The notes under the pieces are model-generated. The model did no database searches. It was given only the letters and a program-made list of their open reading frames with translations, and had not been told where the DNA came from. Shown here in pieces: positions 1-55,205 of a stretch of DNA of 56,497 bases. Source of the DNA: a virus (taxonomy: Duplodnaviria; Caudoviricetes); IMG/VR virus record IMGVR_UViG_3300044535_001837, positions 1 to 56,497 of that record, one strand, 5' to 3'. Every line of letters starts with the position of its first letter. Position 1 is the first letter of the stretch. Both the position numbers and the translations under genes were made by a program.

Positions 1-2
1 CA

Positions 3-803
3 AACTATACATTAACATATAGCGAAGGAGTAGAAGGGTGGCCATCCTTCTATTCCTTTTATCCTGACATGATGATCGGGATGAACAATTACTTCTATTC
101 ATTTAAGGGAGGTAACTTGTATCGTCATAATGTAAACGAGACTAGGAATAACTTCTATGGTCAGCAGTTTAATTCTACGATTCAGAGTGTGTTTAATGAT
201 GCTCCTCTTGATAATAAGATATTCAAGACCTTAAACTTAGAGGGTAATGAATCTTGGAAAGCAGAGGCTCAGACTGATATACAGACAAATGGATTAGTAG
301 AAAAGCTTTGGTTCGAGAAGAAGGAGAACTCATGGTTTGCATTCATTAGAAGCACAGGTGGTATCCCTGCTAATGCATCTCAGTATCCAACAAGATCTGT
401 TAATGGTATTGGTAGGAGTTCAACTATATCCGGTACAGGTACTGCTGTTCAGATCAACTTCTCTATATCACCTACCCTTGTTTCAATAGGCAGCATTATT
501 AGTGTTGGAGATTACCTATATTATTCTTTACCACCTAGTTACAGTACTCCATTATTATTAGGAAGAGTTACAAATATCCAAGTAGACTATCCAAATAATC
601 TAAATAGAATTACAGTTAACTCAACAATATCAGGGGCAACTATTCCTACTATTCAGAATCCTTACATAATGTACATTAAGAATGCCACTGCAGAATCTAA
701 TGGTCTACTTGGGCACTACTGCGTATTTACTCTTGAGAATAATGATACATTTAAAGTTGAGTTATTTGCAGTAGAATCTGATGTAATGAAAAGTTATCCT
801 TGA
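3..803 (+). CDS. Tail/muzzle-associated structural protein, 5'-partial
   Basis: The frame is open from the window start (NYTLTYSEGVEGWPSFYSFYPD before the Met at 69). The W-x-SFYSF...YSFKGGNLYRH motif resembles the C-terminal part of crAss-like tail stabilisation proteins, and the gene precedes the ejection-protein block. Confidence 0.55.
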   Translation, partial: NYTLTYSEGVEGWPSFYSFYPDMMIGMNNYFYSFKGGNLYRHNVNETRNNFYGQQFNSTIQSVFNDAPLDNKIFKTLNLEGNESWKAEAQTDIQTNGLVEKLWFEKKENSWFAFIRSTGGIPANASQYPTRSVNGIGRSSTISGTGTAVQINFSISPTLVSIGSIISVGDYLYYSLPPSYSTPLLLGRVTNIQVDYPNNLNRITVNSTISGATIPTIQNPYIMYIKNATAESNGLLGHYCVFTLENNDTFKVELFAVESDVMKSYP

Positions 804-810
804 TTTTGAA

Positions 811-818
811 TATCTTTG
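811..818 (+). promoter_or_regulatory. Bacteroidota sigma-A -7 box (TATCTTTG)
   Basis: Matches TAnnTTTG, intergenic, upstream of ORF 858. Confidence 0.6.
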
Positions 819-857
819 TGTAAACGAGTGAACTTTAAGATATAAAATTATTATACT

Positions 858-1664
858 ATGCCAATTTTAGCAACAATCGCAGCAGCTACAGCACTAGCTT
901 CAACTGCATTTACAACAGGCAAGTCTTTTACTTTGGCTTCTAAGCAAAGAAAAATACAAAGAGAAGCTGAGTCTGATGCGGCAAAGGCTATGGCTGAAGC
1001 TCGTAAAAAACTAGAAGTAAACTTCTATGATAATCTATCTATTCTAAAAGAACCATATGAGCGTGAGCGTGAAGCATTAATTGCTGCAGGTGCTGCAGGT
1101 ATTGGTGCTGCTCAAGAAGCTGATCCACGTGGAGCAGCTGCTACAGCAGGAAGAATTCAGTTAGGTGTTCAGCAAGGTCAAAGAGAAATAGCAGGAGCTA
1201 TGGGTCAGGAAATGCTTGGCCTCCAAAAGCTATCTGCAGATGAAGCATCAAGATTACGTGACATGAAAGTTGGCATTGATCTTGGTGAAGTAGAAGGAGC
1301 TCAGTTGAAAGCACGTGATGCACAAGAATCAGCTGCTGCATTTACTCAGCAAGGAATGCAAGGTATTCAAGACTTTGGTGAAAAAGCATACAAGATGGCT
1401 CCATTATTTGATAGCAAAAGTTTAAAGGGATTCCAATCTGAAATAGGTAATTTATCTTTTACACCTGAGGAGTTTACTAAATTTGGTAATGTCGCTGAAC
1501 GTGGAGGATTAGGTCCTCAATTGGAAGGCCCATTTACAAACTTAGACTTTCAGACTGTAGGTAAATTTGACAGAATTCAATTCGAAAATTTTTTAAAGGC
1601 ATTAACTAGACAACAGAAAGATATGCTGTCTAGAAATTTACTAAATCCTTTCAACCCATATTAA
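858..1664 (+). CDS. Putative internal virion/ejection protein 1
   Basis: Ala/Gly/Gln-rich helical protein with a hydrophobic N-terminus; first of three genes of increasing size after the tail genes, the usual podovirus ejection-protein layout. Confidence 0.55.
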   Translation: MPILATIAAATALASTAFTTGKSFTLASKQRKIQREAESDAAKAMAEARKKLEVNFYDNLSILKEPYEREREALIAAGAAGIGAAQEADPRGAAATAGRIQLGVQQGQREIAGAMGQEMLGLQKLSADEASRLRDMKVGIDLGEVEGAQLKARDAQESAAAFTQQGMQGIQDFGEKAYKMAPLFDSKSLKGFQSEIGNLSFTPEEFTKFGNVAERGGLGPQLEGPFTNLDFQTVGKFDRIQFENFLKALTRQQKDMLSRNLLNPFNPY

Positions 1665-1670
1665 TTAATA

Positions 1671-3494
1671 ATGGCAGGTACATATTATAAATACGCAGAA
1701 CGTGACGTTGATAGTCAGGTAAATTGGGCTCAGGTAGGAAAGGACCTGAGTGATATGCTTTTAAAAGAAACTGAGCTAAGAGAACAGAAGAAAGCTGAGA
1801 TTGATAAACAGTCTAGAGAACTAGGTCAAAGATTAGAGAATCTTCCTACAGGAAATTCTGATGAGGTAAATGCATGGACTACTAATTTTGCATCTGATAT
1901 GCAGTCTTATAGATTGCTTACTGATAAACTTTTAAAATCAGGTAATCTAAAACTAAAAGATTATAATCTGATAAGACAGAATACTCTTGATGGTACAACA
2001 AACGTACTTAATTTATCCAAAGAATTCCAAGCAGAGTTTGACGAGAAAATGAAGAGACGTATGGAAGACGTTTCATCAGAAGCAGAAACTCAAATGATGG
2101 CATTCTTAGAAGGGTTCTCAAACTTAGCAAAAACAAAACCTGTAATTAATGCTGCCACCGGTGCTGTGAGTTTAGCCAAAATGGAGAAGGGGCCTGATGG
2201 TGTATTAAGGATTAAAGAAGGTAATGACAGTACTGTAACTTCTGCTCAAGCTCGTGAAAGATTAAAGCTAAGAATCGATAAGTATAAACTTAATGATGCC
2301 CTTGCTAGTGAAGTTAAATTAATGGGTAAAGTTGTAGAGGAAGTTCAGACTGCTGCCGGTACAATTTATTCACAGGGTATGATTACTAAACTTAGTGATC
2401 CAACTCAAAGGAAAGGATTAAAACAAGAAGGTCAAGAAGCAGTTAATAACTATCTAGATATAGAAAATAAAATTATAGAATCTAAAACTTCTAATCCATT
2501 TCATGTTTCTTCAATCTTATTTGATTGGTCAGGTGGAGTAGATCCCAATACAAATACTCCTTATCAGATAACATTTGACAAGGATCTTGCAGCTACTAGC
2601 TCGCATTATATCCTTTGGGCTGAGCAGGATGGTGTTCTTCAACCTGACTTTGAATCAACAGATAATGGCAAGCTTCAGTATAATAATGCCAAAGAATATT
2701 CTAAGTTAAAATTCAGAAGTATGCTTGAGCAAAGCAAAGAGCTTAAGCCTACATCTCAACTATCAGATCAGAGACGAACTCCTACTTCAACTGATTATGA
2801 AAGACAAGACTTACAGACAAAGGCTGATAACTTTGGTAAGAATGTGGCTTTCTTAGTAGCAGGTAATGAAGCCCAAAAAAGATTAGCAGTAGATTATTTC
2901 AGAGGTATTCAAGGTATAAAAGGATTTGAGGTATTGGATAATGCTATTAATATTCTTAGAGGATCACAATCAATACCTTATGAATACAGAGGGTCAGCAA
3001 TAGACTATGCTAGTTCTCTTATTTCTAATTTGAATAGAGATGTAGGTCTACCTGAGAATATGATTATGAATGCTGTCCAAAGATTCTTACCTAATCAAAA
3101 TATTTCAAGAATAAAGCTTGGAAGAATTGAGAATCTAGCAGCAAGAGATTATAAACCTGAGGTAGCTAAATATAGTGTAGATAATGTAGTTATTTCAGAA
3201 GATAATCCTCAAGCTACAACAGCATATTTAAATGATAAATTTGGTAAATTAGGATTCTCATTTAGTGGTGGAACAGATGGGGCAACTGATGACTACATAA
3301 TAGCTGTCAGTCCTACAGGTGCAGTTTCTCCTAGATTACAAATTGATGACTTGTCTAATTTGAGTGTAATTATTAAATTTATACAGGATAACTTTGACCC
3401 TAATTTAGCAGGGCAAATGTTTGAACCTCAAAATGAACAGCAGGGTAATACAGGACAACAGGGTGGACAACAAGGTGGTGCCCCAAGACCATAA
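1671..3494 (+). CDS. Putative internal virion/ejection protein 2
   Basis: 607-aa helical protein in the ejection-protein block. Confidence 0.5.
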   Translation: MAGTYYKYAERDVDSQVNWAQVGKDLSDMLLKETELREQKKAEIDKQSRELGQRLENLPTGNSDEVNAWTTNFASDMQSYRLLTDKLLKSGNLKLKDYNLIRQNTLDGTTNVLNLSKEFQAEFDEKMKRRMEDVSSEAETQMMAFLEGFSNLAKTKPVINAATGAVSLAKMEKGPDGVLRIKEGNDSTVTSAQARERLKLRIDKYKLNDALASEVKLMGKVVEEVQTAAGTIYSQGMITKLSDPTQRKGLKQEGQEAVNNYLDIENKIIESKTSNPFHVSSILFDWSGGVDPNTNTPYQITFDKDLAATSSHYILWAEQDGVLQPDFESTDNGKLQYNNAKEYSKLKFRSMLEQSKELKPTSQLSDQRRTPTSTDYERQDLQTKADNFGKNVAFLVAGNEAQKRLAVDYFRGIQGIKGFEVLDNAINILRGSQSIPYEYRGSAIDYASSLISNLNRDVGLPENMIMNAVQRFLPNQNISRIKLGRIENLAARDYKPEVAKYSVDNVVISEDNPQATTAYLNDKFGKLGFSFSGGTDGATDDYIIAVSPTGAVSPRLQIDDLSNLSVIIKFIQDNFDPNLAGQMFEPQNEQQGNTGQQGGQQGGAPRP

Positions 3495-3510
3495 AAAAAA
3501 ATAAATACTT

Positions 3511-6500
3511 ATGGATGAGAAATACATACTAGACCTGTATAATACTGTAGTAAAGAATGATCCATCTTTCAAGGTGGATGTATCCTTAGATTTATTCAGA
3601 CAAAAAATGTCTGATCAGAATTATGCCAAAAAAATATATGGGTGGGTATCAGGTGTTGATCAAGAGTTTAAGAACAACAATCCTGAAGATCAGTTCATGA
3701 AACTCCTGTCAGGAGAAATGGCAGGGACTCCTATTGATAGAGAGATAAAAAAAAAAGACAATACGGCATCATCTTTGGAAGATGGTTTATTGGCATACAG
3801 GAGATTTAATCCTACCACAGGAAAGATTGAAGGAGAGGGACCTGAGACTGAGTCTGTCCAAGTAGTAGAACAGGAAGGCCCTGCACAGCAGCCTAGAGAT
3901 TTAAATACAGGTGAGTACATTTTAAACTCAATGAATGCTGTTAGTAGGGGATTCTATAAGAACTTAATTGGTAATCCTATTAAAGGACTTGGTACCTTAT
4001 TGGAGAAAGGTAATCCTTCTAGACTTTTTGGAGACTCCGGAAAGAGTCCTATCAGTGATTCTCTTATTGAATTCGGGACATGGTTTAATAATGCCATTGA
4101 TGAAGTAGCTGAACAAGATGAAGAGTTCAAAGGAACATTAGTTGATCAGGGTTCACAGGCAATGGGTCAAGTACTTTCAACTGTTCTTACTGCAGGGCTT
4201 GGTGGTATGGCATCAAAAACTTTAGGAGGAGCTTCAGCAATACCTACACTTCAAACAGCTGCAACAACAGGTGCAGCTGCAGAGGTAGCAAAGGATGTTG
4301 CAACAGGAATCGTAAGTCTTCCGGGTATAAGCTCTGCATTAACAGTAGGTCAATCAGAGTTTGAAAGAGCTAAAGAAGCAGGTGCTACTGATGATCAGGC
4401 GTTTGAAGCATTCTATAAAAATGCAGGAACAGGATCTGTACTTGAAAGGGTTCCTGTAATGCAGTTCTTAAAAAGATTTAATAAGGCTACTCAAGGAGGT
4501 GTAGTAGATTATTTAGTGGCTAAAGGTAAGGCAGGTGTAACCGGTGGATTGGAAGAATTTAGTACTGAAATATTGCAACAAATATATGCCAACAAAACAG
4601 CTCAAGAAATTTACAATGTTAATCAAGATCTATTTGAAGGAGTAGCTGAATCAGGAGGTGTAGGATTTGGTGTTGGCTTCCTACTAAATGCTTTGGGTGC
4701 CAATGCTAGAATACTTAGAAAGAATGGTAAAGTAGCAGAAGCCAATACAATAGAACAACAGATATCTGAATTTGAGAAAAGAGCTGAAAAGGGGGGTAAA
4801 TCAACATATAAGGTAAATGGATTTAGTATAACAGATCCGAAGATTATCAATGACATGATTGATAAGCTTAGTGGAGTTGATCTATCAAATTCAAATATTG
4901 AAATCATTAATGATCCTGAGCTTAATACCAAACTACAAAATAAGATAGTTGACGATTCACTTAAAGATCAAATAAGAAAAGCCAATCCTGATCTAAATAA
5001 TGCAAGCGTTAATGCTATTGCAGGACTACAGAAAGAATTAAATAATTTAGAAGGTAATACAACTCAGGTCGCTAAGGATAGAGCAGCTGAGATTAGAACT
5101 AAGATAAAAGATATTCAGGCAAATCAACTGACAGAAGAACCAACAACATATAGAGTTGATGGTAAGGATGTGTCTGTAGATTATATTGATGAGCTGATAA
5201 AAACTAAAAGCAAGGAAGAACTTCTTGCTATGAATATTGAAATAAATAATGATCAAACAGGATTAGCAGAAAGACTACAGGCTGCAGGAGGAACTAAAGC
5301 TGCTGCTCCTACAGCAGAGACTCCAACCTCTCTTACAGAGGAGTTGGCACAATCTATTGCTGAAAAAAGAAAAGCAAGAATTACTGAGTTAGAAGATTTA
5401 CTTGATTCAGATTTTGCAATAACTCAAGAAACAGGGAAAGGAAACCTATCATTTGATGAGAGACGAGAAATAAAACAAGAGTTACAAAAATTAAACGCAG
5501 AACAAGATGCCATTCAAGAGCAAGCAGCAGGTCAAGTACCTGTACAGTCAGGAACCGGAGTTAGCCAAGAAGTGGCGGAAGGAACACCCCAAGCAGAACC
5601 TCAAGGCGTTACCCAAGAAGGTCTCCAAGAAGAAATAGATAAGATTAATCAGGAAAGAGAAAAAGAGCTTAAGTCTTTTAGCGGCCCATTAACTCAACCT
5701 TATTTTATATTTGAAACAGATGGACCAACAGTAGAAGAATATATTAATAAAAAGTATGACGATAAGATAAATGAGTTAACATCTAAGTCTTCAACTCAAG
5801 AAGTCAAACCTAGAATATTAACAGAGAGCTTAGGTAGTGGTGTTGTTAAATATTCAAGCGTTGATGAGAACGGAAATGAGATTGGATCTGCAACTGTATC
5901 TGTTGTCGATGACAAAGTTATTGTCGATGATATATTCGTACAAGAAGAATCAAAGAGAAAGGGAGTAGCTACAAGTATCTTTGATAAGATAACAGAAGAC
6001 TACAAAGGAAAGTCTTTCGATTATGTCGATGCCAATAATAGAGAATTTAGCAAGCCTTATCAGTTAGAGTTTGGTACTGTAGTATCAGATGAAGGATCTG
6101 CTTTTGTAGAATCTGTAAAAGAAAAAACAGAAAAGTTTAATGCAGATCAAAAAGGAGCAAGAGATGCTACAGAATTCAGCTTTGATAATCTATCAAGACA
6201 GCCACTAAAAGTATTAGAAGACAAGCTTGAAGAAATAAATAATAGTTTCCCTGCTGATCCTGATGTTGACAAAGCACAAACAGATGCACTCGCTGAACAA
6301 AGGAAAGCTGTTAAGGATGAGATTGAAAAAGCGAAGGCACAAATAAATACTGCGATTGAATCAGCTAAATCAAATCTTGGTAACAGACTACAAGGAGATG
6401 ACTTAGATAATGCTATAGATTTGATCGATGAGCTTTCTGATAACAAGGCTGAGATAGATGAGGATGGTATGGTAACTGTTTACCATAGAACTACTCCTGA

Positions 6501-9500
6501 TAAGAAAGCTGAGATTGAGAAGACAGGCAATATGAAGGGCCTTGAGGATGGGGTATTCTTTTCAACTAAAGAGACAGGTCAAGCAGAAGGTTACGGTGAT
6601 GCAATTGTAAAACTAAAGATCCCTGTAGAACAATTAATTCTTGATGATACATTTGGAGATGAGGCCCATGTAAGAATACCTACAAAGAAAGCCGGTGAGG
6701 TAGTAAAAGTAAAAGACTACATACAAGCTGAACAAAAAGGAAAGTTAGAAGAAGTAGGTCAAGGATTAAATGAGACTGATCTTCCCGGATATGATAAGAT
6801 GATGAATGCAATTAATGATATCATCTATCGAGCATCCAATAGAGCTGATTCAACTCCTGAAACAGTAATGGATGGGGTTATCAAATATCTTCAGACTAGA
6901 TCTCAGGCTTATATAAATGCTACTGACGTTCAACGTGAGCAGATCATTCGTGATGTTCGTAAGCGATTTGGTAAACGTGAGAAGAAGGCACCGACAGCAG
7001 ATAAGATCGTAGGTAAGACAAAGAAGAAGGAAGTTACTGCCGATGAAATGGCAGCTCTTAAAGATCAGATAAAGCTTGAAGAAAAAGCAGCACGTGAGGC
7101 TAAAAAAGATATTAACACTAAGCGTAAGATGATTGCGGATGCTATCAATAAGATGGCTGAAGGAGGAAAAGTTACTGCTAAGAAAGCTGAGGCAATGCTT
7201 AAGAGATTAAGCAAGCTCAATGTTGATAGTCCTGCTATGGTTAATAAGTTTATTGACTACGTATTCAATGTATTTCAAGATGCTGATTATGCATCTAAAT
7301 TATCTACGGCAAAAAGTTTAAGATCTAAGATCAATAAAATATCTAAGAACAAAGACAAGCTTGCTAACCTAAGAGATCTAGGATCTAAGTTTATAAATAT
7401 AGATCCGACTATGCTTAATGCTGATGAATTAGCTGAGTATAATAGCATAGCTGATAAGGTATTAAAATCAATACAGGGATCTACCTTAAAAGGTAAAGGC
7501 AAGTTGGCTGAAATTGTTGTTGAGTCAGATGTAAATAAATACATCGATGATGTTGTCAAGAAACAAAATCAGCAGAGGCTTGATGATGCAGTCAGTGAGA
7601 TGAGTGAATTGATTGGAGTAGAATTAACTGAAGCAGAATACATTCAACTTATGGAAAGTCAGAATGTGGAGGAAGCTTTAGATAAAAAATACGACAAGGC
7701 AAAAATAAGATCATCAATTCAAAAAGCTTTTGATCTTTATTCAACCATGATCAAAGAATCCATTAAGACAGGAAAGGATTTGTTCAATGGCGATGCTGTT
7801 AATTACTCAGCGATTCAGAAAAGAATCTTGAATCAGTTTATTAATATGGATCTCAATTACCTTAATGATAAGGTACTATTAGAATCTGTAGATGCGTTAA
7901 TGAACTTCATGAACAACGGATCTATTGCAAAGATGGATTCCATATTATCCAAGTATAATGGTGAGAAGAATATGGTTGAAGCTTTGAATGATGGAGTCAA
8001 GTCTAGACCTCTACAAAAGTTTTGGTCTAAAGGATTAGGTAAAGTTTTAGTAGAACAAACTGCAAACATAAACATTGTATTCGAAAGAATATTTGGTGGG
8101 TTTACAAAAGGTCAGAAGATGGAGGAGGCTATGGGTGTAGCTGACTTGGTTAATGGCAAAGCAAAAGGTCAGAAAGAATCAGAGAATATTGTAAATGAAT
8201 ATGTAAGTAAGTTCTTCGATAAGAAACCAAATAACAAATTATTTAACGAAGCTTCAAATAATATTGAAAGGGGCATGGGTGCATTCATGTCTCGAAATGT
8301 TAATGGTACTGATGCTGAAATTAAGACAGAGTTTGAAAGAAGAAAGAAATTAATATCTGATTCAATAACTGAACTAGAGAAAGGCAATGAACAGGAGGTA
8401 GAGAAGGCCAAGATTTATCAGGAGATATATGATAAGATCCTTGCTGATTCTAATACAATCGAGGATGTTCAATCCAAAATGGATAAGACTAACCTAGAGG
8501 CTGTTGAATTTTGGCAGGATAAATGGCGTGATAAATACGAGCAACTATATGATGTGGCTCTTAGTGTCTACAATAAAGTGCTAGATAAAGATACCGGATA
8601 CACTACCGATAGATTCTCTAAGCTAAGTTCAGACAAGGATAAAAAGAGTGATCTTCTAAATGAAGACATGGCATTTATTGTTAATAGTGGAAACTCAAGT
8701 ATCTATAAGAAAGAAACAGGGGTATTGATGACAGCTACTAAACCTAAAAAGTTGCCATCAAATGAGAAGGGTAAAACAAATAGATATGTTGATTTATCTT
8801 TTGATAGCAATAATGCTAACTCAATGTATGATGCTCTTGTTGATATCAATACTGCCGCAGCGATTAGACAGATAGATGCAGCGATGGAATCAGATGCATT
8901 CAGCAAGATCATGGATAATCAGAGAGATAAGACTCTTATTCAAAATAGAATACGTTTGTATGTTGCCAACATTAGAAACAAGAATCCATTCTCTAATGAT
9001 GAGTTATCTAGATTTGGTAAAAGACTAAACAGAGTAGCAGCAATAAGTGTTGGCCAATCATTGGGTGGTGTGACTCAACCAATAAAGCAAACTATACCTA
9101 TCGCTATAAATACTTTAATAAATGCAGGGTCATTGGATGTTAAATCAATATTTGATAAATCCAAGCAGTCATTTATTAATCGTTCAGGAAGAGCAATCGC
9201 TAACAGAGGTATTGAATCTCAGGCTCAGGTATCTACATTGAATAAAATGGTAGATGATATAGCCAAAAGCAAAGGAGAGAAAATGTTCAAAGCCATTGAG
9301 AAAGTTAATGATTGGTGGTTGAGAAATTTATTGGTGAAGTTTGACGTAGGTATTGCACGTGCTTCTTGGATGACATACTATGAACAGTCTCTTAAGAAGC
9401 AAGGTATTAATCCAAGTACTATTGATTGGAATACTCATGAAGTAAATGAGAAGGCGGCAAACTATGCACAGAGACAAGTCGATCGTCAGCAGAACGTATC

Positions 9501-10680
9501 TGATTCAGACATGGCCGGAGAGTTATTGTCAAGCAAGGATGCTAAGACACAGATCTTTGTGAAAATGTTGATGCCTTTCGCTTCATTTAGAATGAATCAA
9601 TCTGCAAGACTTGGATCTGATATGTCTGTTCTATTGAATTGGAAAGAATCTGATTCTCAGGATTTGAAGATTGCTGCTAGATCAGTTGCAGGATTTGCTG
9701 CTGAAATGGCTACGTTTAGAATATTATCTGCAGGTATTTCAATACTACTTTATGATGCTGTTAGAGCTATAGTTGGAGGGGATGAAGATGAGGAGAAAAG
9801 ACAGAAGAAGATTGATGCTATCATAAAAGGACAGTTGACTAGTACAGTATCTGATGTGTTATCTCCTTCACCATTGGTAGATCCATTAGTACAAGGAGGA
9901 ACAGCATTTACTTTAGATAATCTACAGAATGCACTTGATATAGAAGATGAAGATCGTGTTTCAATATATGGATCAAATCCAAAAGATCTTTTGCAATCCT
10001 ATGGTACTCTTGGTATGGGTGCTGATAGAGCACTACAACTAGTAGAGATGGGTCAGCTTATTGCAGGTCAGGGATTCAAAGATAATTTCAATAGAACTAA
10101 ATATGTATCTGAAAGATATAGAGATGCACTAGAACTTCTATTTGTTCCTGCAATTATGTCAAACATTGGACTAGCACCTGCTGAAGTAAACAGCATAGTT
10201 AGATCAACGATCTCTGAAGCAAAGAGAAACTCATCTACAGTTGAGGGCGGCAAGACAAAACAAGATGAAGCTATTGAGAAGTTTGATGAGATCAATAAAG
10301 AAGCTGATAAATCAAAACAAGAGCAAGAGGATAGAAAAGAATTGAAAGCTCTTGAAGAATTGAAAGCAAGTGAATATGATTCAGATGTTATAAATGCAGT
10401 CAATGATAGGATCAGAGCTATACGAAATCCTGATGATAAAGACTTAGAGGAGAAGAAGAAGAAGAAGAAGGAAGAGAAAGAAAAACTTCTAGGTGAGTAT
10501 GATAATATGACAGAGATGGAAAGATATGATCCTGAATTATTTGAGGAAAGATTTGGTGAGAACTCTGAGTATTACATGAAAAATAGAGGGGAAGTAGAAG
10601 CAGAAAAGAAACTTAACAAACTTCTTAAGCAGATGGAAGATGAAGAAAGAGGATACTCTAGTAGGAAAAAGAGAAGGTAA
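3511..10680 (+). CDS. Giant ejection/polyvalent protein with GNAT and ART-like inserts
   Basis: 2389 aa with Gly/Ala-rich hydrophobic helices, coiled coils, a GNAT motif A (IFVQEESKRKGVATSI) and ART-like motifs (VYHRT...GVFFST...AEGYG). Confidence 0.7.
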   Translation: MDEKYILDLYNTVVKNDPSFKVDVSLDLFRQKMSDQNYAKKIYGWVSGVDQEFKNNNPEDQFMKLLSGEMAGTPIDREIKKKDNTASSLEDGLLAYRRFNPTTGKIEGEGPETESVQVVEQEGPAQQPRDLNTGEYILNSMNAVSRGFYKNLIGNPIKGLGTLLEKGNPSRLFGDSGKSPISDSLIEFGTWFNNAIDEVAEQDEEFKGTLVDQGSQAMGQVLSTVLTAGLGGMASKTLGGASAIPTLQTAATTGAAAEVAKDVATGIVSLPGISSALTVGQSEFERAKEAGATDDQAFEAFYKNAGTGSVLERVPVMQFLKRFNKATQGGVVDYLVAKGKAGVTGGLEEFSTEILQQIYANKTAQEIYNVNQDLFEGVAESGGVGFGVGFLLNALGANARILRKNGKVAEANTIEQQISEFEKRAEKGGKSTYKVNGFSITDPKIINDMIDKLSGVDLSNSNIEIINDPELNTKLQNKIVDDSLKDQIRKANPDLNNASVNAIAGLQKELNNLEGNTTQVAKDRAAEIRTKIKDIQANQLTEEPTTYRVDGKDVSVDYIDELIKTKSKEELLAMNIEINNDQTGLAERLQAAGGTKAAAPTAETPTSLTEELAQSIAEKRKARITELEDLLDSDFAITQETGKGNLSFDERREIKQELQKLNAEQDAIQEQAAGQVPVQSGTGVSQEVAEGTPQAEPQGVTQEGLQEEIDKINQEREKELKSFSGPLTQPYFIFETDGPTVEEYINKKYDDKINELTSKSSTQEVKPRILTESLGSGVVKYSSVDENGNEIGSATVSVVDDKVIVDDIFVQEESKRKGVATSIFDKITEDYKGKSFDYVDANNREFSKPYQLEFGTVVSDEGSAFVESVKEKTEKFNADQKGARDATEFSFDNLSRQPLKVLEDKLEEINNSFPADPDVDKAQTDALAEQRKAVKDEIEKAKAQINTAIESAKSNLGNRLQGDDLDNAIDLIDELSDNKAEIDEDGMVTVYHRTTPDKKAEIEKTGNMKGLEDGVFFSTKETGQAEGYGDAIVKLKIPVEQLILDDTFGDEAHVRIPTKKAGEVVKVKDYIQAEQKGKLEEVGQGLNETDLPGYDKMMNAINDIIYRASNRADSTPETVMDGVIKYLQTRSQAYINATDVQREQIIRDVRKRFGKREKKAPTADKIVGKTKKKEVTADEMAALKDQIKLEEKAAREAKKDINTKRKMIADAINKMAEGGKVTAKKAEAMLKRLSKLNVDSPAMVNKFIDYVFNVFQDADYASKLSTAKSLRSKINKISKNKDKLANLRDLGSKFINIDPTMLNADELAEYNSIADKVLKSIQGSTLKGKGKLAEIVVESDVNKYIDDVVKKQNQQRLDDAVSEMSELIGVELTEAEYIQLMESQNVEEALDKKYDKAKIRSSIQKAFDLYSTMIKESIKTGKDLFNGDAVNYSAIQKRILNQFINMDLNYLNDKVLLESVDALMNFMNNGSIAKMDSILSKYNGEKNMVEALNDGVKSRPLQKFWSKGLGKVLVEQTANINIVFERIFGGFTKGQKMEEAMGVADLVNGKAKGQKESENIVNEYVSKFFDKKPNNKLFNEASNNIERGMGAFMSRNVNGTDAEIKTEFERRKKLISDSITELEKGNEQEVEKAKIYQEIYDKILADSNTIEDVQSKMDKTNLEAVEFWQDKWRDKYEQLYDVALSVYNKVLDKDTGYTTDRFSKLSSDKDKKSDLLNEDMAFIVNSGNSSIYKKETGVLMTATKPKKLPSNEKGKTNRYVDLSFDSNNANSMYDALVDINTAAAIRQIDAAMESDAFSKIMDNQRDKTLIQNRIRLYVANIRNKNPFSNDELSRFGKRLNRVAAISVGQSLGGVTQPIKQTIPIAINTLINAGSLDVKSIFDKSKQSFINRSGRAIANRGIESQAQVSTLNKMVDDIAKSKGEKMFKAIEKVNDWWLRNLLVKFDVGIARASWMTYYEQSLKKQGINPSTIDWNTHEVNEKAANYAQRQVDRQQNVSDSDMAGELLSSKDAKTQIFVKMLMPFASFRMNQSARLGSDMSVLLNWKESDSQDLKIAARSVAGFAAEMATFRILSAGISILLYDAVRAIVGGDEDEEKRQKKIDAIIKGQLTSTVSDVLSPSPLVDPLVQGGTAFTLDNLQNALDIEDEDRVSIYGSNPKDLLQSYGTLGMGADRALQLVEMGQLIAGQGFKDNFNRTKYVSERYRDALELLFVPAIMSNIGLAPAEVNSIVRSTISEAKRNSSTVEGGKTKQDEAIEKFDEINKEADKSKQEQEDRKELKALEELKASEYDSDVINAVNDRIRAIRNPDDKDLEEKKKKKKEEKEKLLGEYDNMTEMERYDPELFEERFGENSEYYMKNRGEVEAEKKLNKLLKQMEDEERGYSSRKKRR
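5507..5638 (+). CDS. Nested +1-frame small basic protein (MPFKS...-type, 43 aa)
   Basis: ATG-to-TAG frame reads MPFKSKQQVKYLYSQEPELAKKWRKEHPKQNLKALPKKVSKKK with an A-rich leader. From memory it resembles a small stand-alone protein seen in aquatic phages. Confidence 0.65.
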   Translation: MPFKSKQQVKYLYSQEPELAKKWRKEHPKQNLKALPKKVSKKK

Positions 10681-10683: not shown

Positions 10684-11100
10684 TTAGGTGAATCGGATAT
10701 ACTTTAAATCTTTCTGCTGATCAAAGTAAACCATCATCTCATTATCATTGGAGGCTCCCTCTCTTGGGGGCCTTCCTCCATATTTTACTTGACCAACAAG
10801 TGAGAATACTTTACCATATATTATCCCATCATCGCAAGACCATATCAGTACAGGGTTCAGTCTCTTATCAATAAGCTTTGATAGTTTGCTTAATGAAACC
10901 GGCAATGGGTATGCGGTCTTCATTGTCTTGAGTCTGCCCTTCACCTCAGCATAGGCTAATAGGTTCCCTTCTTTATCGAATACTTTATAGTCGATATCAA
11001 GTGGTCCTAGTTTTTGGAATGATCCTTGAAACACATTTACAAATGTGTTGATTGCTCTCTCTTCTCGTTTAAGATCTTGCTCTGTTTCAAAAATCTTCAT
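10684..11100 (-). CDS. PD-(D/E)XK-like nuclease
   Basis: IDY...AEVKGR catalytic-type motif. Confidence 0.55.
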   Translation of the reverse strand: MKIFETEQDLKREERAINTFVNVFQGSFQKLGPLDIDYKVFDKEGNLLAYAEVKGRLKTMKTAYPLPVSLSKLSKLIDKRLNPVLIWSCDDGIIYGKVFSLVGQVKYGGRPPREGASNDNEMMVYFDQQKDLKYIRFT

Positions 11101-11284
11101 CGTATTCTATAGTCTTTATGATATCCCTTAGATCTTTAATCAAGGATTTGATATCATTCTTTACTGATTCATATTCCCTGTCTACTAGCTTCTCATAAAT
11201 CATGGCAACGCTAGTATGAAATCCTTCTGTAGTAAAGGCTATCCGGGCTGCCCGGTCTCTTTCTTTTTGGACTCTTCCATCCAT
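11087..11284 (-). CDS. Hypothetical protein
   Basis: ORF overlapping its neighbours in the leftward operon. Confidence 0.6.
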   Translation of the reverse strand: MDGRVQKERDRAARIAFTTEGFHTSVAMIYEKLVDREYESVKNDIKSLIKDLRDIIKTIEYDEDF

Positions 11285-11700
11285 TCTTTCTCAGTTATAA
11301 ATGTGTAAAATGGTTTCATTTTTTCTTTGAGTAATCTTATCTCCTGCTTAAGTGCTTCATTCTCTTGCACTAATCTACCAACAATATTGTACGAATTTAC
11401 AGGTTCCTCCTTAAATTTATTAGCATCTACTAAAGTCTTGCATTTATCATGTAACTCTCTGAATGCTGAATCTATTTCAATCAAATCATAAAACCTATTG
11501 ATGTAATAGTCAGCAGCATATCTGCTCTTCTTCATGTTATATGCAATGCTTTCTCTGTGCATACCTGTATCATTAAGTAACTTAGCGAATATCATTCTTG
11601 CTTCTACCTCTCCTCTGTATCTTGTGGTAGATAGGATCCGCTCTCCTGTTACAAGTTCAACAATGTTTCTTAGATCATCAATCTTCTTCTGATCTTCCAT
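11239..11700 (-). CDS. DnaA C-terminal-like HTH protein with coiled coil
   Basis: TRYRGEVEARMIFAKLL resembles the DnaA domain IV signature; start placed at MEDQK. Confidence 0.5.
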   Translation of the reverse strand: MEDQKKIDDLRNIVELVTGERILSTTRYRGEVEARMIFAKLLNDTGMHRESIAYNMKKSRYAADYYINRFYDLIEIDSAFRELHDKCKTLVDANKFKEEPVNSYNIVGRLVQENEALKQEIRLLKEKMKPFYTFITEKEWMEESKKKETGQPG

Positions 11701-11932
11701 AAAAGAGTTCCGCTTTAATTCCATGTCTTTGTAGTTCTTTGATTCTATATTCCTGTAGTTTACTTGGCTTACCTGTAGATCGCTTTACCTCGTAGAACTC
11801 AACGTCAGAGTTCTTAGGTATGGCTATGAGATCCGGTATGCCATTCTTATTTGTCTTGACTAACTTGATAACGTAGTACCCCTGATCCTCTAGGTCCTTG
11901 ATAAGTTTAGTCTGTATCTGCTGCTCTGTCAT
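11678..11932 (-). CDS. VRR-NUC domain nuclease
   Basis: EQQIQ...GIPDL...FYEVK...LQ motif. Confidence 0.8.
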   Translation of the reverse strand: MTEQQIQTKLIKDLEDQGYYVIKLVKTNKNGIPDLIAIPKNSDVEFYEVKRSTGKPSKLQEYRIKELQRHGIKAELFYGRSEED

Positions 11933-12158
11933 AGGGCCTAAAGTTTTTCTTTGCTGTCTGTAATGCTTCTACTTCAGTGTCAGCAACACCTGTGTCATAT
12001 GTAAAGCCATCGCTAAACCAATATAGCCAATCACCACCTATTGATTGGAATACACCTATTGATTCTACAGGAACCTCTCTCATGTAGAATAACTTCTTTG
12101 CTTGGTCACCTATATAGATTGTCATTTCACTATGTCTTTTAGTTGATTCTCTCCCCAA
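11907..12158 (-). CDS. Hypothetical protein
   Basis: ORF in the leftward operon; start uncertain. Confidence 0.55.
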   Translation of the reverse strand: MGRESTKRHSEMTIYIGDQAKKLFYMREVPVESIGVFQSIGGDWLYWFSDGFTYDTGVADTEVEALQTAKKNFRPYDRAADTD

Positions 12159-12287
12159 TAGTAATCACATTTATTATCCTCAATAGGCGGTTTCATAAAC
12201 CAAGATTGCCAAAACTCGCTAGGCTTAGCAGTGTGTCGGTAGCATGTTTCTTTGTAGGGACAATTTGTCCCTACGCACATTGTGATA

Positions 12288-12605
12288 TCAGGCATTTCTA
12301 TATTCGTCTAGTTCTTCTTTTAATCTTTCTAAAAACGATTCTTCCCCATCATCACCACTCAACAACCAATCAATTCGTTGGGCATATATGGCTGCTAGTC
12401 TAAGATAGTGTACTCCTTTCTTGAACTCTGCAATAACCTCTTCAGGATATTCGTAATGATGAGTAGGTTTTTCACCATCAAAAAGAAAATAATCTCTTCT
12501 TTCTTCTTCTGTCAATAACCTACCGCTATTATCTATCTCTCTTTGAATATCATCCGCTATAGGATCTATTCTTCTTTGGTCGTAATTAAAGTGTCCTCCG
12601 CTCAT
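12288..12605 (-). CDS. Hypothetical phage protein (MSGGHFNY...IDWLLSGDDGEE type)
   Basis: Recurrent small phage protein motifs; coupled to the upstream stop. Confidence 0.7.
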   Translation of the reverse strand: MSGGHFNYDQRRIDPIADDIQREIDNSGRLLTEEERRDYFLFDGEKPTHHYEYPEEVIAEFKKGVHYLRLAAIYAQRIDWLLSGDDGEESFLERLKEELDEYRNA

Positions 12606-12847
12606 AGTTGTTTGTATGTTTCGTTGTAGTATTGTTCCCCTGAATTTCCATTATCGGGATATCCATCTGAATAGCCCTGTTCATATCCATCTGTAATCTG
12701 CTCCTTCTCTTCCTCAATCAACTCGTACAGTAATCTCTCAATCTGCTGAAGATGATGAGCAGTATGCTTGCCCATTAGAGTTTCATCCATCGATTCCATT
12801 CTACTTCTCACCATCGTAATGGCTTTCTGTATTACTGTCTGTTTCAT
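12602..12847 (-). CDS. MKQT-type hypothetical protein, paralog B
   Basis: MKQTV...EKEQITDGYEQG...EQYYNETY, similar to the adjacent ORF. Confidence 0.65.
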   Translation of the reverse strand: MKQTVIQKAITMVRSRMESMDETLMGKHTAHHLQQIERLLYELIEEEKEQITDGYEQGYSDGYPDNGNSGEQYYNETYKQL

Positions 12848-13037
12848 ATTTTTCTTTATAGATTTGTTCAAAGGTTACATCACTTGGGAAAGGAATAAAG
12901 AACCCATCCTGATAAAACTCCTTCATCTGCTCCTTCTCCATCTCTTTGGCTTTCTCTAAAATGCTATGCCAAATAAACTTATCCTTTGGCGAAGTCCATA
13001 GTTCCGTAAAATACCATTCTACTGCTGTCTGTTTCAT
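12801..13037 (-). CDS. MKQTAVEW-type hypothetical protein, paralog A
   Basis: MKQTAVEW...AKEMEKEQ...FEQIYKEKY. Confidence 0.65.
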   Translation of the reverse strand: MKQTAVEWYFTELWTSPKDKFIWHSILEKAKEMEKEQMKEFYQDGFFIPFPSDVTFEQIYKEKYETDSNTESHYDGEK

Positions 13038-13186
13038 AGTTTATCGATTAGATTGTTTAAGTTCTCATCTGATAGGAAGTTCTCCTTGTCAGTACTCCAA
13101 TAGTCTAGGTACCTATCCCTGTGTACAGCGTACCACTTCTGTGTGTATTCATTCCAATGAAATACGTAGTTCCAAATCTTTTCCAT
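13034..13186 (-). CDS. Small Trp/Tyr-rich hypothetical protein (50 aa, not in the ORF track)
   Basis: MEKIWNYVFHWNEYTQKWYAVHRDRYLDYW...; its stop overlaps the next ATG (ATGA). Confidence 0.55.
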   Translation of the reverse strand: MEKIWNYVFHWNEYTQKWYAVHRDRYLDYWSTDKENFLSDENLNNLIDKL

Positions 13187-13204
13187 ATCATTTATTTTAA
13201 TGTG

Positions 13205-13350
13205 TAGTCAGGACAGGATTCGAACCTGCATGGTAGGCTTATCTAGAAAGCCGTTTGAAGTACCTATTACAAAGGTATTACGGAGCTTTACACCGACTTT
13301 AACGGACACCAACCTTTGCTTTTAGCGTTTACCAATTCCGCCACCTGACT
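13205..13350 (-). ncRNA. tRNA-like RNA with a ~95-nt multi-hairpin insert
   Basis: Acceptor stem AGTCAGG/CCTGACT plus discriminator A, D-arm TGGCGGAATTGGTAAACGC, T-arm GCAGG-TTCGAAT-CCTGT; no anticodon arm at the normal position. Confidence 0.75.
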
Positions 13351-13395
13351 AAGTTTGCTACTGTTGGTAGGCACTAGCGACCGAAACATATAACC

Positions 13396-13563
13396 CTATC
13401 TATCTATTTTAATTGTATATTTTTTCCCATATAGTTTTCTTGCATGCTCATTAGCTTCTGAATAAGTTCCTACAAACTCAGAACTATGGTCCCAATCATC
13501 TATATCTTTATTCCACTTGATATAATGATCACCATAAATAAGATATCTACTTCTAGTCTTCAT
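13396..13563 (-). CDS. Small hypothetical protein (55 aa, not in the ORF track)
   Basis: MKTRSRYLIYGDHYIKWNKD...; ATG overlaps the helicase stop. Confidence 0.55.
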   Translation of the reverse strand: MKTRSRYLIYGDHYIKWNKDIDDWDHSSEFVGTYSEANEHARKLYGKKYTIKIDR

Positions 13564-17316: not shown

Positions 17317-17470
17317 AAATGCTAATTTGATTCCGTATTTGTGTCGAGTAAGTTGCTGATAATCAGATCGATGTCGATTATGTCAATTTAAAAACTAAAA
17401 TGAAATAGAAAATAAATAATAATATATATAAGTATATATATAGTATAAGGGAAAACTAAAACGTCATAGT
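17310..17470. repeat. Origin-like element, copy 1 (TGTC boxes + TA-rich tract)
   Basis: Several (A/G)TGTC(G/A) boxes followed by AAATAAATAAT-(TA)n-GGGAA; colinear with 26075-26231. Confidence 0.55.
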
Positions 17471-17476
17471 CTAGTG

Positions 17477-17510
17477 GAAAAAAGAGGGGGAATTTAACCC
17501 CCTCATATTT
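17477..17510 (-). terminator. Intrinsic terminator after the SSB-like gene
   Basis: GAGGGGG/CCCCCTC stem with a U-tract on the minus strand. Confidence 0.65.
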
Positions 17511-17779: not shown

Positions 17780-17780
17780 G

Positions 17781-19437: not shown

Positions 19438-19440
19438 TTT

Positions 19441-19632
19441 TTAAATGTTGCTAATTAGTAGAATGTAAACTAGGAATAGTGTAATCATTACACCGAAACT
19501 GATCATGTCAATAATGATCTTCTGTTTGCTAGATGCATCATCATATTTTCTACCGAATACTAATTCGGTAATCAGAATATTGACTGCCACCACTAGGAAA
19601 GCAATGACAATCATGGCTATGAAATCACTCAT
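19441..19632 (-). CDS. Small membrane protein with two TM segments
   Basis: Two hydrophobic segments. Confidence 0.6.
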   Translation of the reverse strand: MSDFIAMIVIAFLVVAVNILITELVFGRKYDDASSKQKIIIDMISFGVMITLFLVYILLISNI

Positions 19633-50468: not shown

Positions 50469-50479
50469 AAAAAAATATA

Positions 50480-55203: not shown

Positions 55204-55205
55204 TC

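What the first reader, a model, noticed from the sequence alone, without database searches (positions are those of the whole stretch)
5507..5638. Hidden gene overprinted inside the giant ejection protein
Seen: the +1 frame encodes a complete 43-aa ORF, MPFKSKQQVKYLYSQEPELAKKWRKEHPKQNLKALPKKVSKKK, behind an A-rich Bacteroidota-type leader (ACAAAAATTAAACGCAGAACAAG-ATG). The 0 frame over the same bases is a disordered Q/E/G/P linker (DAIQEQAAGQVPVQSGTGVSQEV...), and the stretch is locally GC-richer, as expected if the +1 frame is under selection. From memory, MPFKS..Q..YL....PE.A..W is a small stand-alone phage protein type. Inference: a dual-coded cassette that co-expresses a basic partner with the ejection protein, just ahead of its GNAT and ART domains; it could be a packaging chaperone, an antidote or a DNA-binding peptide. 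Gene callers would miss it.
Basis: partly seen in the sequence, partly recalled or inferred. Interest (0 to 1): 0.85.

Follow-up and report, generated by a model that had tools for sequence, protein, structure and literature searches.

The report
Hidden small gene inside giant phage gene
A 43-residue, very basic protein of a widespread but unnamed phage family is encoded in a second reading frame inside a giant virion-protein gene, and both frames of this DNA are kept by selection.

Summary
ORF 5507-5638 lies in the +1 frame of a 2389-aa phage gene. Its length alone is unremarkable. However, all 80 related viral contigs fetched with the peptide keep the ATG and an open 41-66 aa frame inside a large ORF. 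So do 14 of 15 contigs fetched without reference to the peptide.

In the overlap, variation follows codon positions 3>1>2 of the +1 frame. dN/dS is 0.09 for the +1 frame and 2.5 for the giant's frame. The giant's frame also stays open (78 of 78). It does so through near-total avoidance of T-ending codons, which has a chance probability of about 0.001.

The ATG has the best A-rich Bacteroidota-type leader among the gene's 190 internal ATGs. A +1-frame stop lies 4 codons upstream, which argues against frameshifting.

The peptide belongs to a large phage family with no Pfam or NCBIfam model (4335 clusters). Members occur free-standing, at the end of diverse enzymes, or embedded as here. The model is a confident two-helix mini-domain with a lysine tail.

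Function is unproven. My best guess is a nucleic-acid-binding or tethering protein made together with virion proteins. The small gene appears older than the linker that overlaps it.

The parts
5507..5638 (+). Embedded small gene, 43 codons plus TAG, in the +1 frame of the giant gene. The product is a basic (net +11) two-helix mini-domain with a lysine tail.
   Evidence: ORF and translation. Kept in 80 of 80 peptide-ascertained loci and 14 of 15 loci ascertained by frame 0. +1-frame dN/dS 0.089. AF2 pLDDT 88 with helices 6-15 and 17-26.
5477..5506 (+). A-rich, G-poor leader (translation initiation region) of the embedded gene. It lies inside frame-0 codons of the giant gene.
   Evidence: The window has A at -2, -3, -5, -6, -8, -12, -13 and -14. 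Across 85 distinct embedded copies A is 0.60-0.87 at these places. The leader is 56% A against 36% in flanks. A-3, A-6, A-12 and A-13 are positive determinants in Flavobacterium johnsoniae (PMC6847099, abstract and passages).
5492..5494 (+). TAA stop in the +1 frame, 4 codons before the ATG. It closes that frame to ribosomes shifting from frame 0 further upstream.
   Evidence: The +1-frame open stretch starts at 5495. In 81 loci the upstream stop lies a median of 4 codons before the ATG, range 0-28.
5506..5640 (+). Frame-0 reading of the same DNA: an acidic Q/E/G/A/V/P-rich linker (aa 666-710 of the giant protein, net -9).
   Evidence: The frame is open in 78 of 78 copies although the expected probability is about 0.001. 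Frame-0 dN/dS is 2.5 and its third positions are the least variable.
3511..10680 (+). Host gene: a giant mosaic protein of 2389 aa. Relatives are annotated 'structural protein' in Elemovirus phages.
   Evidence: Modules differ between relatives.
5818..6036 (+). Weak GNAT-like stretch of the giant protein (aa 770-842).
   Evidence: Pfam Acetyltransf_1/7/10, E 0.012-0.028, all below the curated cut-offs. phrog_3810 acetyltransferase, E 6.5e-4.
6316..6738 (+). Stretch of the giant protein (aa 936-1076) with a weak ADP-ribosyltransferase-superfamily fold signal.
   Evidence: Single-sequence AF2 model, pLDDT 82. The best Foldseek rows are Tpt1/KptA, Rhs ART toxins and PARP catalytic domains, but the best E is 0.014 and none reaches 0.001. 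phrog_6170, unknown function, at aa 986-1061.

Best explanation
Bases 5507-5638 carry two protein-coding messages.

Frame 0 is an acidic linker of a giant phage virion protein. The +1 frame is a complete small gene. It is translated from its own ATG, which ribosomes reach through an A-rich, weakly structured leader of the type used by Bacteroidota, which lack Shine-Dalgarno sites. Because it lies on the giant gene's mRNA, it is presumably made together with the virion proteins.

The product is a 43-residue, strongly basic protein. Its N-terminal 'MPFKS' segment packs on two short helices (6-15, 17-26). A conserved T-P...L-P-x-K-V stretch and a lysine tail follow. It belongs to a large, unnamed, apparently phage-borne family. 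Members occur as free small genes, as a terminal module on diverse enzymes, or embedded as here.

Shown by sequence statistics:
- The +1 frame is under strong purifying selection.
- Frame 0 is kept open by codon choice.
- The ATG and its leader are conserved.
- Free-standing homologues exist.

Inferred:
- Translation itself has not been observed.
- The small gene is older, and giant genes came to read through it when neighbouring genes fused.
- The protein acts as a compact nucleic-acid-binding or tethering module, probably on phage DNA. I put this function at about 0.35.

The confidence given below is for the gene-level statement: a real, selected, separately initiated small gene dual-coded with the giant gene.
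For: Conservation
- The peptide recurs in the +1 frame of giant genes in Elemovirus phages and in MW202828, with the ATG and the stop kept.
All 80 kept have an ATG and an open 41-66 aa frame inside an open frame of 387 to more than 2000 aa.
- In a set ascertained by the frame-0 N-terminal module, 14 of 15 loci have a copy.

Selection
- Nucleotide diversity by +1 codon position is 0.204 / 0.123 / 0.386 over 72 distinct sequences. It is 0.248 / 0.124 / 0.409 in codons 21-38, which the search patterns did not cover.
- Pooled Nei-Gojobori dN/dS is 0.089 in the +1 frame and 2.5 in frame 0, over 70 sequences.
- As a control, the N-terminal module in frame 0 gives dN/dS 0.166 with its third position most variable.
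- In contigs of three freshwater DNA runs, 18 variable places in the ORF fall 12 / 5 / 1 on +1 positions 3 / 1 / 2.

Dual coding
- Embedded copies have T at 2.2% of third positions, against 36% in the host flanks.
- With synonymous codons redrawn from flank usage, frame 0 stays open with mean P 0.001 (maximum 0.008). Observed: 78 of 78 open.
- In a second set, embedded copies have T3 of 0.02-0.04 and free copies 0.12-0.28, in matched GC bands.

Start site
- The leader A-score is 8 of 9, the best of 190 internal ATGs in the gene.
- A-rich positions are conserved in 85 copies and match the published determinants.
- There is a +1-frame stop a median of 4 codons upstream, and 74 of 81 loci have no other upstream start.

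Family
- 4335 cluster representatives at E<=1e-3, with the domain almost always at residues 1-38.
- Free copies occur in Streptomyces phage FlowerPower (annotated gene 48) and Mycobacterium phage Barnyard (annotated gp9). Unannotated free copies occur in Phage C75C1, P-RSP2 and S-CBS2.
- In a broad set of 80 loci, 38 are embedded, 35 are free and small, and 5 sit at the N-terminus of a longer ORF.
- The AF2 model has pLDDT 88.
Against: - No direct evidence of translation. There are no Ribo-seq or proteomic data.
- The single RNA-library contig over 5524-5766 (depth 2.5) does not prove transcription.
- The main 80-locus set was found with the peptide itself, so it is ascertainment-biased. The unbiased set has only 15 loci, some near-identical.
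- The leader's A-score positions were chosen after looking at the family.
- mRNA folding at the start is only moderately weak: -2.3 kcal/mol, in the weakest 20% of windows.
- The window peptide alone matches phrog_1375 only at E 0.057.
- Nothing tested here bears directly on function. There was no fold match and no solved relative. Gene neighbourhoods of free copies are mixed: portal, tail fibre and virion proteins, but also ligase and glycosyltransferase.
- One database protein (P0105) has the peptide in frame at the C-terminus of an upstream giant module. So a fused form may exist in some phages.
Confidence: 0.85

Rival explanations
1. Same gene-level reading, different function. The mini-domain is a docking or packaging tag that binds a capsid-interior component (portal, scaffold or coat). 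It would load itself, or enzymes fused to it, into the procapsid for ejection into the host.
For: The domain sits at the extreme terminus of proteins carrying varied enzyme domains: ParB-like nuclease, AAA kinase-like, NUDIX, SAM lyase/DUF3293, DnaJ, cupin, HerA. Hosts of embedded copies are giant virion genes or the gene right after the portal. Free copies lie right after portal genes in L108 and L113, and Barnyard gp9 lies two genes after gp7, whose function is unannotated.
Against: A cargo-less 43-residue peptide has no obvious use as a tag. Some free copies have non-structural neighbours. P-RSP2 carries its copy among small genes annotated only as hypothetical. No partner has been identified.
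Confidence: 0.2
2. Same gene-level reading, different function. The peptide binds a host factor (ribosome, RNA polymerase, protease or similar) and acts in host takeover or counter-defence.
For: Small basic phage proteins often act this way (general knowledge, not tested here). The family spans phages with locus GC of 0.31-0.67, so any target would have to be widely shared.
Against: No homology or fold match to any known inhibitor. Placement in late or virion genes fits a late role better than an early one.
Confidence: 0.12
3. The +1 frame is not initiated on its own. It is reached by programmed ribosomal frameshifting, which would give a truncated giant protein (N-terminal 665 aa) ending in the basic peptide.
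For: One database protein (P0105, 1075 aa) is exactly such a fusion in a single frame. Two others carry the domain C-terminally without a Met (P0036, P0079).
Against: A +1-frame stop lies 4 codons before the ATG in the window, and a median of 4 codons (0-28) in 81 loci, leaving almost no room for a shift site. The ATG is kept in all 80 loci plus the 14 of the frame-0 set, although in-frame fusions show that Met is not needed for the fold. Free homologues start at the same Met.
Confidence: 0.04
4. The conservation reflects a nucleotide-level element (RNA structure, recombination site or protein-binding site) or constraint on the giant's frame 0, not a second protein.
For: The stretch is a sharply bounded island shared by many otherwise unlike contigs, with a depth spike at 5463-5666 and loose ends on both sides. 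It could also serve as a recombination joint between modules.
Against: The three-base periodicity is in register with the +1 frame. Frame-0 third positions are the least variable, and frame-0 dN/dS is 2.5. Amino-acid replacements are conservative. Protein-level homologues exist with different codon usage in unrelated phages.
Confidence: 0.03
5. Chance ORF, or a relic that is no longer expressed in this particular phage.
For: A 43-codon ORF is not unusual in the +1 frame of this gene: 2 of 75 are this long.
Against: All the comparative evidence above argues against it. The window copy is intact and 84-93% identical to several relatives. It also has the best leader score in the gene.
Confidence: 0.02

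Closest known systems
Lambda Rz/Rz1 embedded spanin genes (recalled from general knowledge, not from a call)
   Same: A complete small gene with its own start lies wholly inside a larger phage gene in the +1 frame, both are thought to be expressed from one mRNA, and gene callers miss it.
   Different: No homology. The window peptide has no cysteine, lipobox or signal sequence, so it is not a spanin. The host here is a giant virion protein or a post-portal gene. The embedded gene has many free-standing homologues and appears to be the older partner.
Overprinted genes of small viruses such as phiX174 (general knowledge; review PMC8227390 seen only in the search listing)
   Same: Same-strand dual coding with an asymmetric dN/dS signature, where one frame dominates.
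   Different: In the classic cases the embedded frame is the young, de novo gene. Here the embedded frame belongs to a broad family (4335 clusters), and the overlying frame is a low-complexity linker.
phrog_1375 (PHROGs family, function unknown)
   Same: A small phage protein family. 10 of 14 diverse members of this family match it, best E 1.1e-4, over profile positions about 17-48 of 70.
   Different: The window peptide itself reaches only E 0.057. The second sequence type (MPYKS...) and the Cys-containing type do not match.
Pfam DUF3008 (PF11450)
   Same: ESM Atlas lists a viral cluster of 55-aa proteins, 15% of them carrying DUF3008, as the nearest cluster with a family, at score 0.85. I also recall a similar N-terminal K-S-x-x-Q motif and a C-terminal L-P motif, which is recall and not a test.
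   Different: No hmmscan hit at E<=1 for the 25 distinct peptides tested. The function of DUF3008 is unknown anyway.
Small terminal two-helix binding modules such as SAP/HeH DNA-binding motifs, or the helix-turn-helix coat-binding end of the P22 scaffolding protein (recalled analogies)
   Same: About 35-40 residues, two helices, basic, terminal, and attached to varied partners.
   Different: No sequence or fold match was obtained. This is purely a functional analogy.

Membership tests
Unnamed 'MPFKS' small-protein family (profile built here) | Conserved N-terminal M-P-[FY]-K-S-x-x-Q, two hydrophobic helices with P17, A20 and W/F23, then L-P-x-K-V and a basic tail | tested here: met
   Alignments A1, A2, A3 and A5. 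The window matches the A3 profile at E 3e-21, which is circular because the window is in the profile. Independent members are 63-92% identical.
Unnamed 'MPFKS' small-protein family | Free-standing members exist, so it is a protein family and not a by-product of the host frame | tested here: met
   FlowerPower gene 48 and Barnyard gp9 are annotated. Intergenic ORFs occur in C75C1, P-RSP2 and S-CBS2. 35 of 80 broad-set loci are free. There are 1419 small proteins at E<=1e-5, and every one of the 120 listed that carries a name is called 'hypothetical'.
phrog_1375 | Significant match to the family HMM | tested here: inconclusive
   Window peptide E 0.057. 10 of 14 relatives match, best 1.1e-4.
Pfam DUF3008 (PF11450) | Match to the Pfam HMM at or above the gathering score | tested here: not met
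   No hit at E<=1. There is only an ESM Atlas lead at 0.85.
Embedded same-strand overlapping gene (Rz1-in-Rz type arrangement) | Complete ORF with its own start and stop inside a longer ORF, in the +1 frame | tested here: met
Embedded same-strand overlapping gene | Purifying selection on the embedded frame, with both frames maintained | tested here: met
   +1-frame dN/dS 0.089. Frame 0 open in 78 of 78 against P of about 0.001.
Embedded same-strand overlapping gene | Both products are actually made | not testable with these tools
   No Ribo-seq or proteomics. One RNA-library contig only.
Spanin Rz1 / o-spanin | Lipoprotein signal with a lipobox cysteine | tested here: not met
   The 43-residue peptide has no cysteine and no hydrophobic signal segment.
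Programmed frameshift product | An open path from frame 0 into the +1 frame upstream of the conserved part, and no need for its own start | tested here: not met
   Stop at 5492-5494, 4 codons before the ATG. Median 4 codons in 81 loci, and the ATG is always kept.
Bacteroidota-type (SD-less) translation initiation region | A at -3, -6, -12 and -13, with weak local structure (Baez et al. 2019, PMC6847099) | tested here: met
   The window has A at all four places. The family has A at 0.79, 0.60, 0.75 and 0.87. dG is -2.3 against a mean of -4.7 kcal/mol. Use by ribosomes was not tested.
   The Foldseek top rows are Tpt1/KptA, Rhs ART toxins and PARPs, but the best E is 0.014, from a single-sequence model. 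There was no sequence match in the PDB.
GNAT acetyltransferase (host protein aa 770-842) | Pfam match above the gathering score | tested here: not met
   Scores of 14.8-16.3 bits against cut-offs of 20.7-27. phrog_3810 E 6.5e-4. This is a lead only.

The most novel reading that the evidence does not exclude
The 'MPFKS' mini-domain is an ancient, nearly universal phage module. Giant virion-protein and post-portal genes have repeatedly swallowed its gene by reading through it. As a result, one stretch of DNA encodes a basic peptide (net +11) and, in the other frame, a charge-complementary acidic linker (net -9) of the giant protein. In this reading the two products bind each other. The giant internal protein would then be loaded with its own peptide in fixed proportion, for DNA neutralisation or co-ejection. 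The overlap itself would be the mechanism that keeps the pair together through the rampant module shuffling of these genes.
Probability: 0.1. Interest if true: 0.9.

Novelty: new variant of a known kind. Interest (0 to 1): 0.72.

Why it matters
Embedded genes in tailed phages are known from very few cases, and annotation pipelines discard them. Here a single small gene is embedded in roughly half of the loci sampled from its family: 38 of 80, plus the 80 loci.

The case has unusually clean statistical signatures, which makes it a good model for how two frames share one sequence. It also reverses the usual story: an old small gene is overlain by a young linker created when neighbouring virion genes fused.

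The family has no Pfam or NCBIfam model, and every database name I saw for it is 'hypothetical'. It is nevertheless abundant, with 4335 clusters at 50% identity. Naming it and finding its partner could explain a recurring unknown in phage head and virion modules. It could also explain the terminal tag on many phage enzymes.

Cultured Elemovirus phages carry the embedded form, so the question is directly testable.

Tried and rejected
- Family libraries. Pfam gave nothing for the window peptide or for 24 relatives. NCBIfam gave nothing over the mini-domain in the 9 proteins tested; the only hits fell in the C-terminal parts of three longer ones.
- Fold and structure searches. Foldseek against the PDB gave a best E of 8. 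VIA-align wide gave a best Z of 2.1. A profile against PDB sequences gave only chance-level rows.
- Complex prediction. Complex prediction of the portal (811 aa, 6-row alignment) with the peptide (79-row alignment) returned 'no answer', score 0.00. This is neither support nor evidence against binding.
- Isolates. tblastn of the giant's N-terminal module against isolated phages found no match. megablast of window 11000-20000 found only one weak match, to MW202828.
- Expression. The one RNA run that held any of the stretch gave a single 246-nt contig at depth 2.5, which cannot show transcription, strand or ends.
- Literature. Six motif strings matched no paper. A search on overlapping or embedded phage genes listed nothing on this family, and I saw only the listing. 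The Baltic Flavobacterium phage paper (PMC7077304, find mode only) does not mention mass spectrometry, overlapping genes or 'elemo'. Supplements are closed, so published catalogues of small phage genes could not be checked.
- Internal promoter. I looked for the recalled Bacteroidota -7 motif TAnnTTTG in the 300 bases upstream and found none. This is weak negative evidence only.
- Rejected readings. Frameshifting was considered and rejected. A chance ORF was considered and rejected.
- Neighbour tally of free copies. It is mixed, so it does not settle function.
- Tree of 90 peptides. It has too few columns (42) to count origins of the embedded state. It shows 15 changes against a shuffled mean of 28.9, and a single origin is not excluded.
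Full report
**Observation.** Bases 5507-5638 (+) encode 43 residues beginning MPFKSKQQ, followed by TAG. The ORF lies in the +1 frame of ORF 3511-10680, which is 2389 aa. The quoted leader, the frame-0 translation and the local GC rise (0.508 against 0.361 for the gene) are all correct. Length alone proves nothing. The +1 frame of this gene holds 75 ATG-ORFs, two of them of 43 codons or more, and open stretches up to 50 codons.

**Context.** The window is a linear viral record of 56,497 bases with a CheckV completeness estimate of 54%. It carries one copy of the peptide. It encodes a terminase (45799-48036), a portal (48033-50468) and several virion structural proteins.

**Relatives keep the frame.** tblastn of the peptide against isolated phages gave individually weak hits (E 0.4-0.8) in 82 records. 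Of these, 68 are Flavobacterium 'elemo' podophages and one is MW202828.
- In both records that I opened, the hit lies inside the giant 'structural protein' gene, again in its +1 frame. The ATG and the stop are kept, giving 42 and 43 aa, and nothing is annotated there.
- The protein database holds 12 small called proteins of 42-62 aa, 63-92% identical to the peptide.
380 matches were confirmed and 80 were returned.
- All 80 have an ATG and an open 41-66 aa frame. 76 start MPFKS. Four carry codon-sized changes near the start that preserve both frames.
- All 80 lie inside an open frame in the same relative register. 76 of these frames are 762 to more than 2000 codons long, many cut by the locus ends. 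Four are 387-431 codons and follow the portal gene.

**Which frame is selected.**
- Over 72 distinct ungapped copies, nucleotide diversity by +1 codon position is 0.204 / 0.123 / 0.386. It is 0.248 / 0.124 / 0.409 in codons 21-38, which the search patterns did not touch.
- The third position of the giant's own frame is therefore the least variable.
- Pooled pairwise Nei-Gojobori estimates over 70 copies give dN/dS 0.089 for the +1 frame and 2.5 for frame 0.
- As a control, the N-terminal module of the same giant gene (13 sequences) behaves normally in frame 0. Its mismatch by position is 0.26 / 0.18 / 0.51 and its dN/dS is 0.166.
- blastp of the window's giant protein was run against the frame-0 translations of 82 loci. 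75 have some match and 70 have one over the overlap. In 38, nothing outside aa 590-770 aligns. The median frame-0 identity of the island is 49%, against 53-94% for the peptide.

**Frame 0 is also maintained.**
- Embedded copies use T at only 2.2% of third positions (G 55%). The third positions of the flanking host gene have 36% T. A T-ending codon before a K, N, E, D, S or R codon would create a stop in frame 0.
- I redrew synonymous codons from flank usage while keeping each peptide. Frame 0 then stays open with mean probability 0.001 (maximum 0.008). Observed: 78 of 78 open. This set was 77 loci plus the window; L051, L055 and L069 were left out because their start is offset.
- This codon choice also explains the GC rise (0.489 against 0.384) and the E/Q/G/A/V/P make-up of the linker.
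- Free-standing copies do not show the bias. P-RSP2 has T 0.35 and A 0.55, and L099 has T 0.13 and A 0.46.
- In a second, independently fetched set, embedded copies have T3 of 0.02-0.04. Free copies have 0.28, 0.23 and 0.12 in low, middle and high GC bands.

**Less biased sampling.**
- I fetched loci with the frame-0 N-terminal module (aa 137-543), which does not include the peptide. This gave 15 loci, some near-identical.
- 14 of them have a copy. Nine are in the +1 frame of that giant ORF. Three are in the +1 frame of a second large ORF, 41-54 codons after its ATG. One is free-standing just after a 1013-aa ORF (L099). One is a truncated 25-aa free copy (L101). L095 has none.
- I laid contigs of three freshwater DNA runs on 4800-6300. 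Depth jumps from about 4-20 to about 100-990 only over 5463-5666, with unlike sequence on both sides. The 18 variable places inside the ORF fall 12 / 5 / 1 on +1 positions 3 / 1 / 2.
- These runs come from the same kind of habitat as the viral contigs, so they are not fully independent.

**How it is probably expressed.**
- The 30 bases before the ATG are A-rich and almost free of G. Across 85 distinct embedded copies, A is 0.79 at -3, 0.60 at -6, 0.75 at -12 and 0.87 at -13. It is 0.78-0.86 at -2, -5, -8 and -11. The leader is 56% A against 36% in flanks.
- Baez et al. 2019 (PMC6847099; abstract and passages read) showed that A-3, A-6, A-12 and A-13 promote initiation in Flavobacterium johnsoniae, which does not use Shine-Dalgarno pairing.
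- In the window, the 5507 ATG scores 8 of 9 on these places. It is the only one of 190 internal ATGs to do so, and it scores above the starts of 16 long ORFs, which reach 2-7. The places were chosen after seeing the family.
- Predicted structure over -30..+12 is weak: -2.3 kcal/mol against a mean of -4.7, which puts it in the weakest 20% of windows.
- A +1-frame stop sits 4 codons before the ATG. In 81 loci the median distance is 4 codons (0-28), and 74 have no other upstream start. Frameshifting from frame 0 is therefore unlikely.
- Translation itself is not shown.

**What the protein is.**
- A profile of 21 copies was searched against 1.84 billion cluster representatives. It found 4335 at E<=1e-3 and 199 at E<=1e-10, with the match almost always at residues 1-38.
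- Many hits are 43-80 aa. Others are longer and carry the domain at one end. Of 59 longer ones scanned, a minority have a Pfam domain: DUF5661 (3), ParB-like nuclease, AAA kinase-like, NUDIX, SAM lyase/DUF3293, DnaJ, cupin and HerA.
- Three database proteins carry it C-terminally in frame (P0036, P0079, P0105).
- Free-standing copies exist in Streptomyces phage FlowerPower (annotated gene 48) and Mycobacterium phage Barnyard (gp9). Unannotated intergenic ORFs occur in Phage C75C1, Prochlorococcus phage P-RSP2 and Synechococcus phage S-CBS2.
- In a broad set of 80 viral loci with locus GC of 0.31-0.67, 38 copies are embedded in the same register, 35 are free and small, and 5 head a longer ORF. 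Two overlap other open frames in GC-rich DNA, probably by chance.
- No Pfam or NCBIfam model matches it. phrog_1375, of unknown function, matches 10 of 14 members, best E 1.1e-4. Among 1419 small database relatives, every one of the 120 listed that carries a name is called 'hypothetical'.
- AlphaFold2 with 79 sequences gives pLDDT 88, helices 6-15 and 17-26, and an extended basic tail. No structural or solved relative was found.

**Evolutionary reading (inference).**
- The peptide family is broad and has free members, while the frame-0 stretch is a low-complexity linker that aligns only where the peptide does. I therefore take the small gene to be the older partner.
- In several loci the free gene sits immediately after a giant ORF (L099, L118, L127, L128, L136, L162). 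On a weak, 42-column tree these free copies nest among embedded ones, and L097 (embedded) and L099 (free) are sisters.
- The embedded state needs 15 changes on that tree, against a shuffled mean of 28.9 (minimum 22). A single origin is not excluded.
- The simplest account is that giant genes arose, perhaps repeatedly, by fusion of neighbouring virion genes reading through the small gene. The shared island may also serve as a joint for module exchange.

**Function (inference).**
- The conserved residues look structural: an S-x-x-Q helix cap, P17 at the turn, A20 and W23 in the helix interface, then T-P and L-P. The exposed residues are mostly K and R, giving a net charge of +11.
- Together with the terminal position on varied enzymes, this points to a compact binding module. 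I favour nucleic acid, probably phage DNA, at about 0.35. A capsid-interior docking tag gets about 0.2 and a host-factor binder about 0.12.
- Neighbours of free copies are often structural (portal, tail fibre, virion proteins) but not always (ligase, glycosyltransferase).
GNAT is sub-threshold, and the ART-fold signal at aa 936-1076 is weak but consistent.

**Comparison and novelty.**
- The arrangement works like the lambda Rz1-in-Rz embedded gene and like the overprinted genes of small viruses (both recalled). It is not a member of any named family.
- It differs in three ways. The embedded gene is the ancient one. The host is a giant mosaic virion gene or the post-portal gene. The arrangement is common across many uncultured phages.
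- Two literature searches found no description.

**Limits.**
- There are no expression data.
- The largest locus set was ascertained with the peptide.
- dN/dS in overlapping frames is confounded, so it is used here only comparatively.
- The tree is poorly resolved.
- Function is inferred from shape, charge and context only.

Noticed in passing
L001 3001-3129, L002 3001-3132, L088 9445-9597, L090 9187-9318: A subtype of the embedded peptide, found in Elemovirus phages and their relatives, replaces the second-helix region with a stretch holding two conserved cysteines. It does not match phrog_1375 in the one member tested, L090. It might bind a metal or form a disulfide.
   Followed up: partly
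L093 9631-9795, L097 11438-11590, L098 13515-13661, L099 14902-15066, L092 9394-9546: A second, longer sequence type (starting MPYKS or MPYQS, with an insert between the helices) occurs in close relatives of the window's phage. It is embedded in some and free in L099.
   Followed up: partly
protein P0105 (1075 aa) from the representative library: Here an N-terminal giant-gene module runs in one frame into the peptide and ends at its stop. It is either a natural fused variant or an assembly frameshift.
   Followed up: no
window 3511-10680 and loci L003-L082: The giant genes are strongly mosaic. The N-terminal sequences and the position of the small gene (382 to more than 1000 codons from the start) differ widely, and few modules are shared (aa 137-543 and about 1080-1300).
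   Followed up: partly
window 4800-6300 in runs X3, X7, X19: Near-identical DNA of this phage occurs in lake and freshwater metagenomes of many studies (20 of the 21 listed runs hold at least part of it, 16 studies). Two contigs join 5067 directly to 5504 or 5507, so some relatives lack about 436-439 bases just upstream of the small gene (table 5).
   Followed up: no
L101 15289-15366: A free copy is truncated to 25 residues by an internal deletion. It is possibly a decaying copy.
   Followed up: no
window 13570-14400 (- strand ORFs 13560-14933 and 14926-17316): This is the only megablast match of window 11000-20000 to an isolated or deposited phage. It is 70.6% identical to MW202828, where the gene is annotated as a type I restriction enzyme.
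   Followed up: no
window 45799-56496 and 1-10680: The structural genes run off the end of the record and continue at its start. Terminase, portal and virion proteins lie at 45.8-56.5 kb, and further virion proteins and the giant gene lie at 0.07-10.7 kb. The record is probably a permuted or nearly whole genome, although CheckV's estimate is 54%.
   Followed up: no
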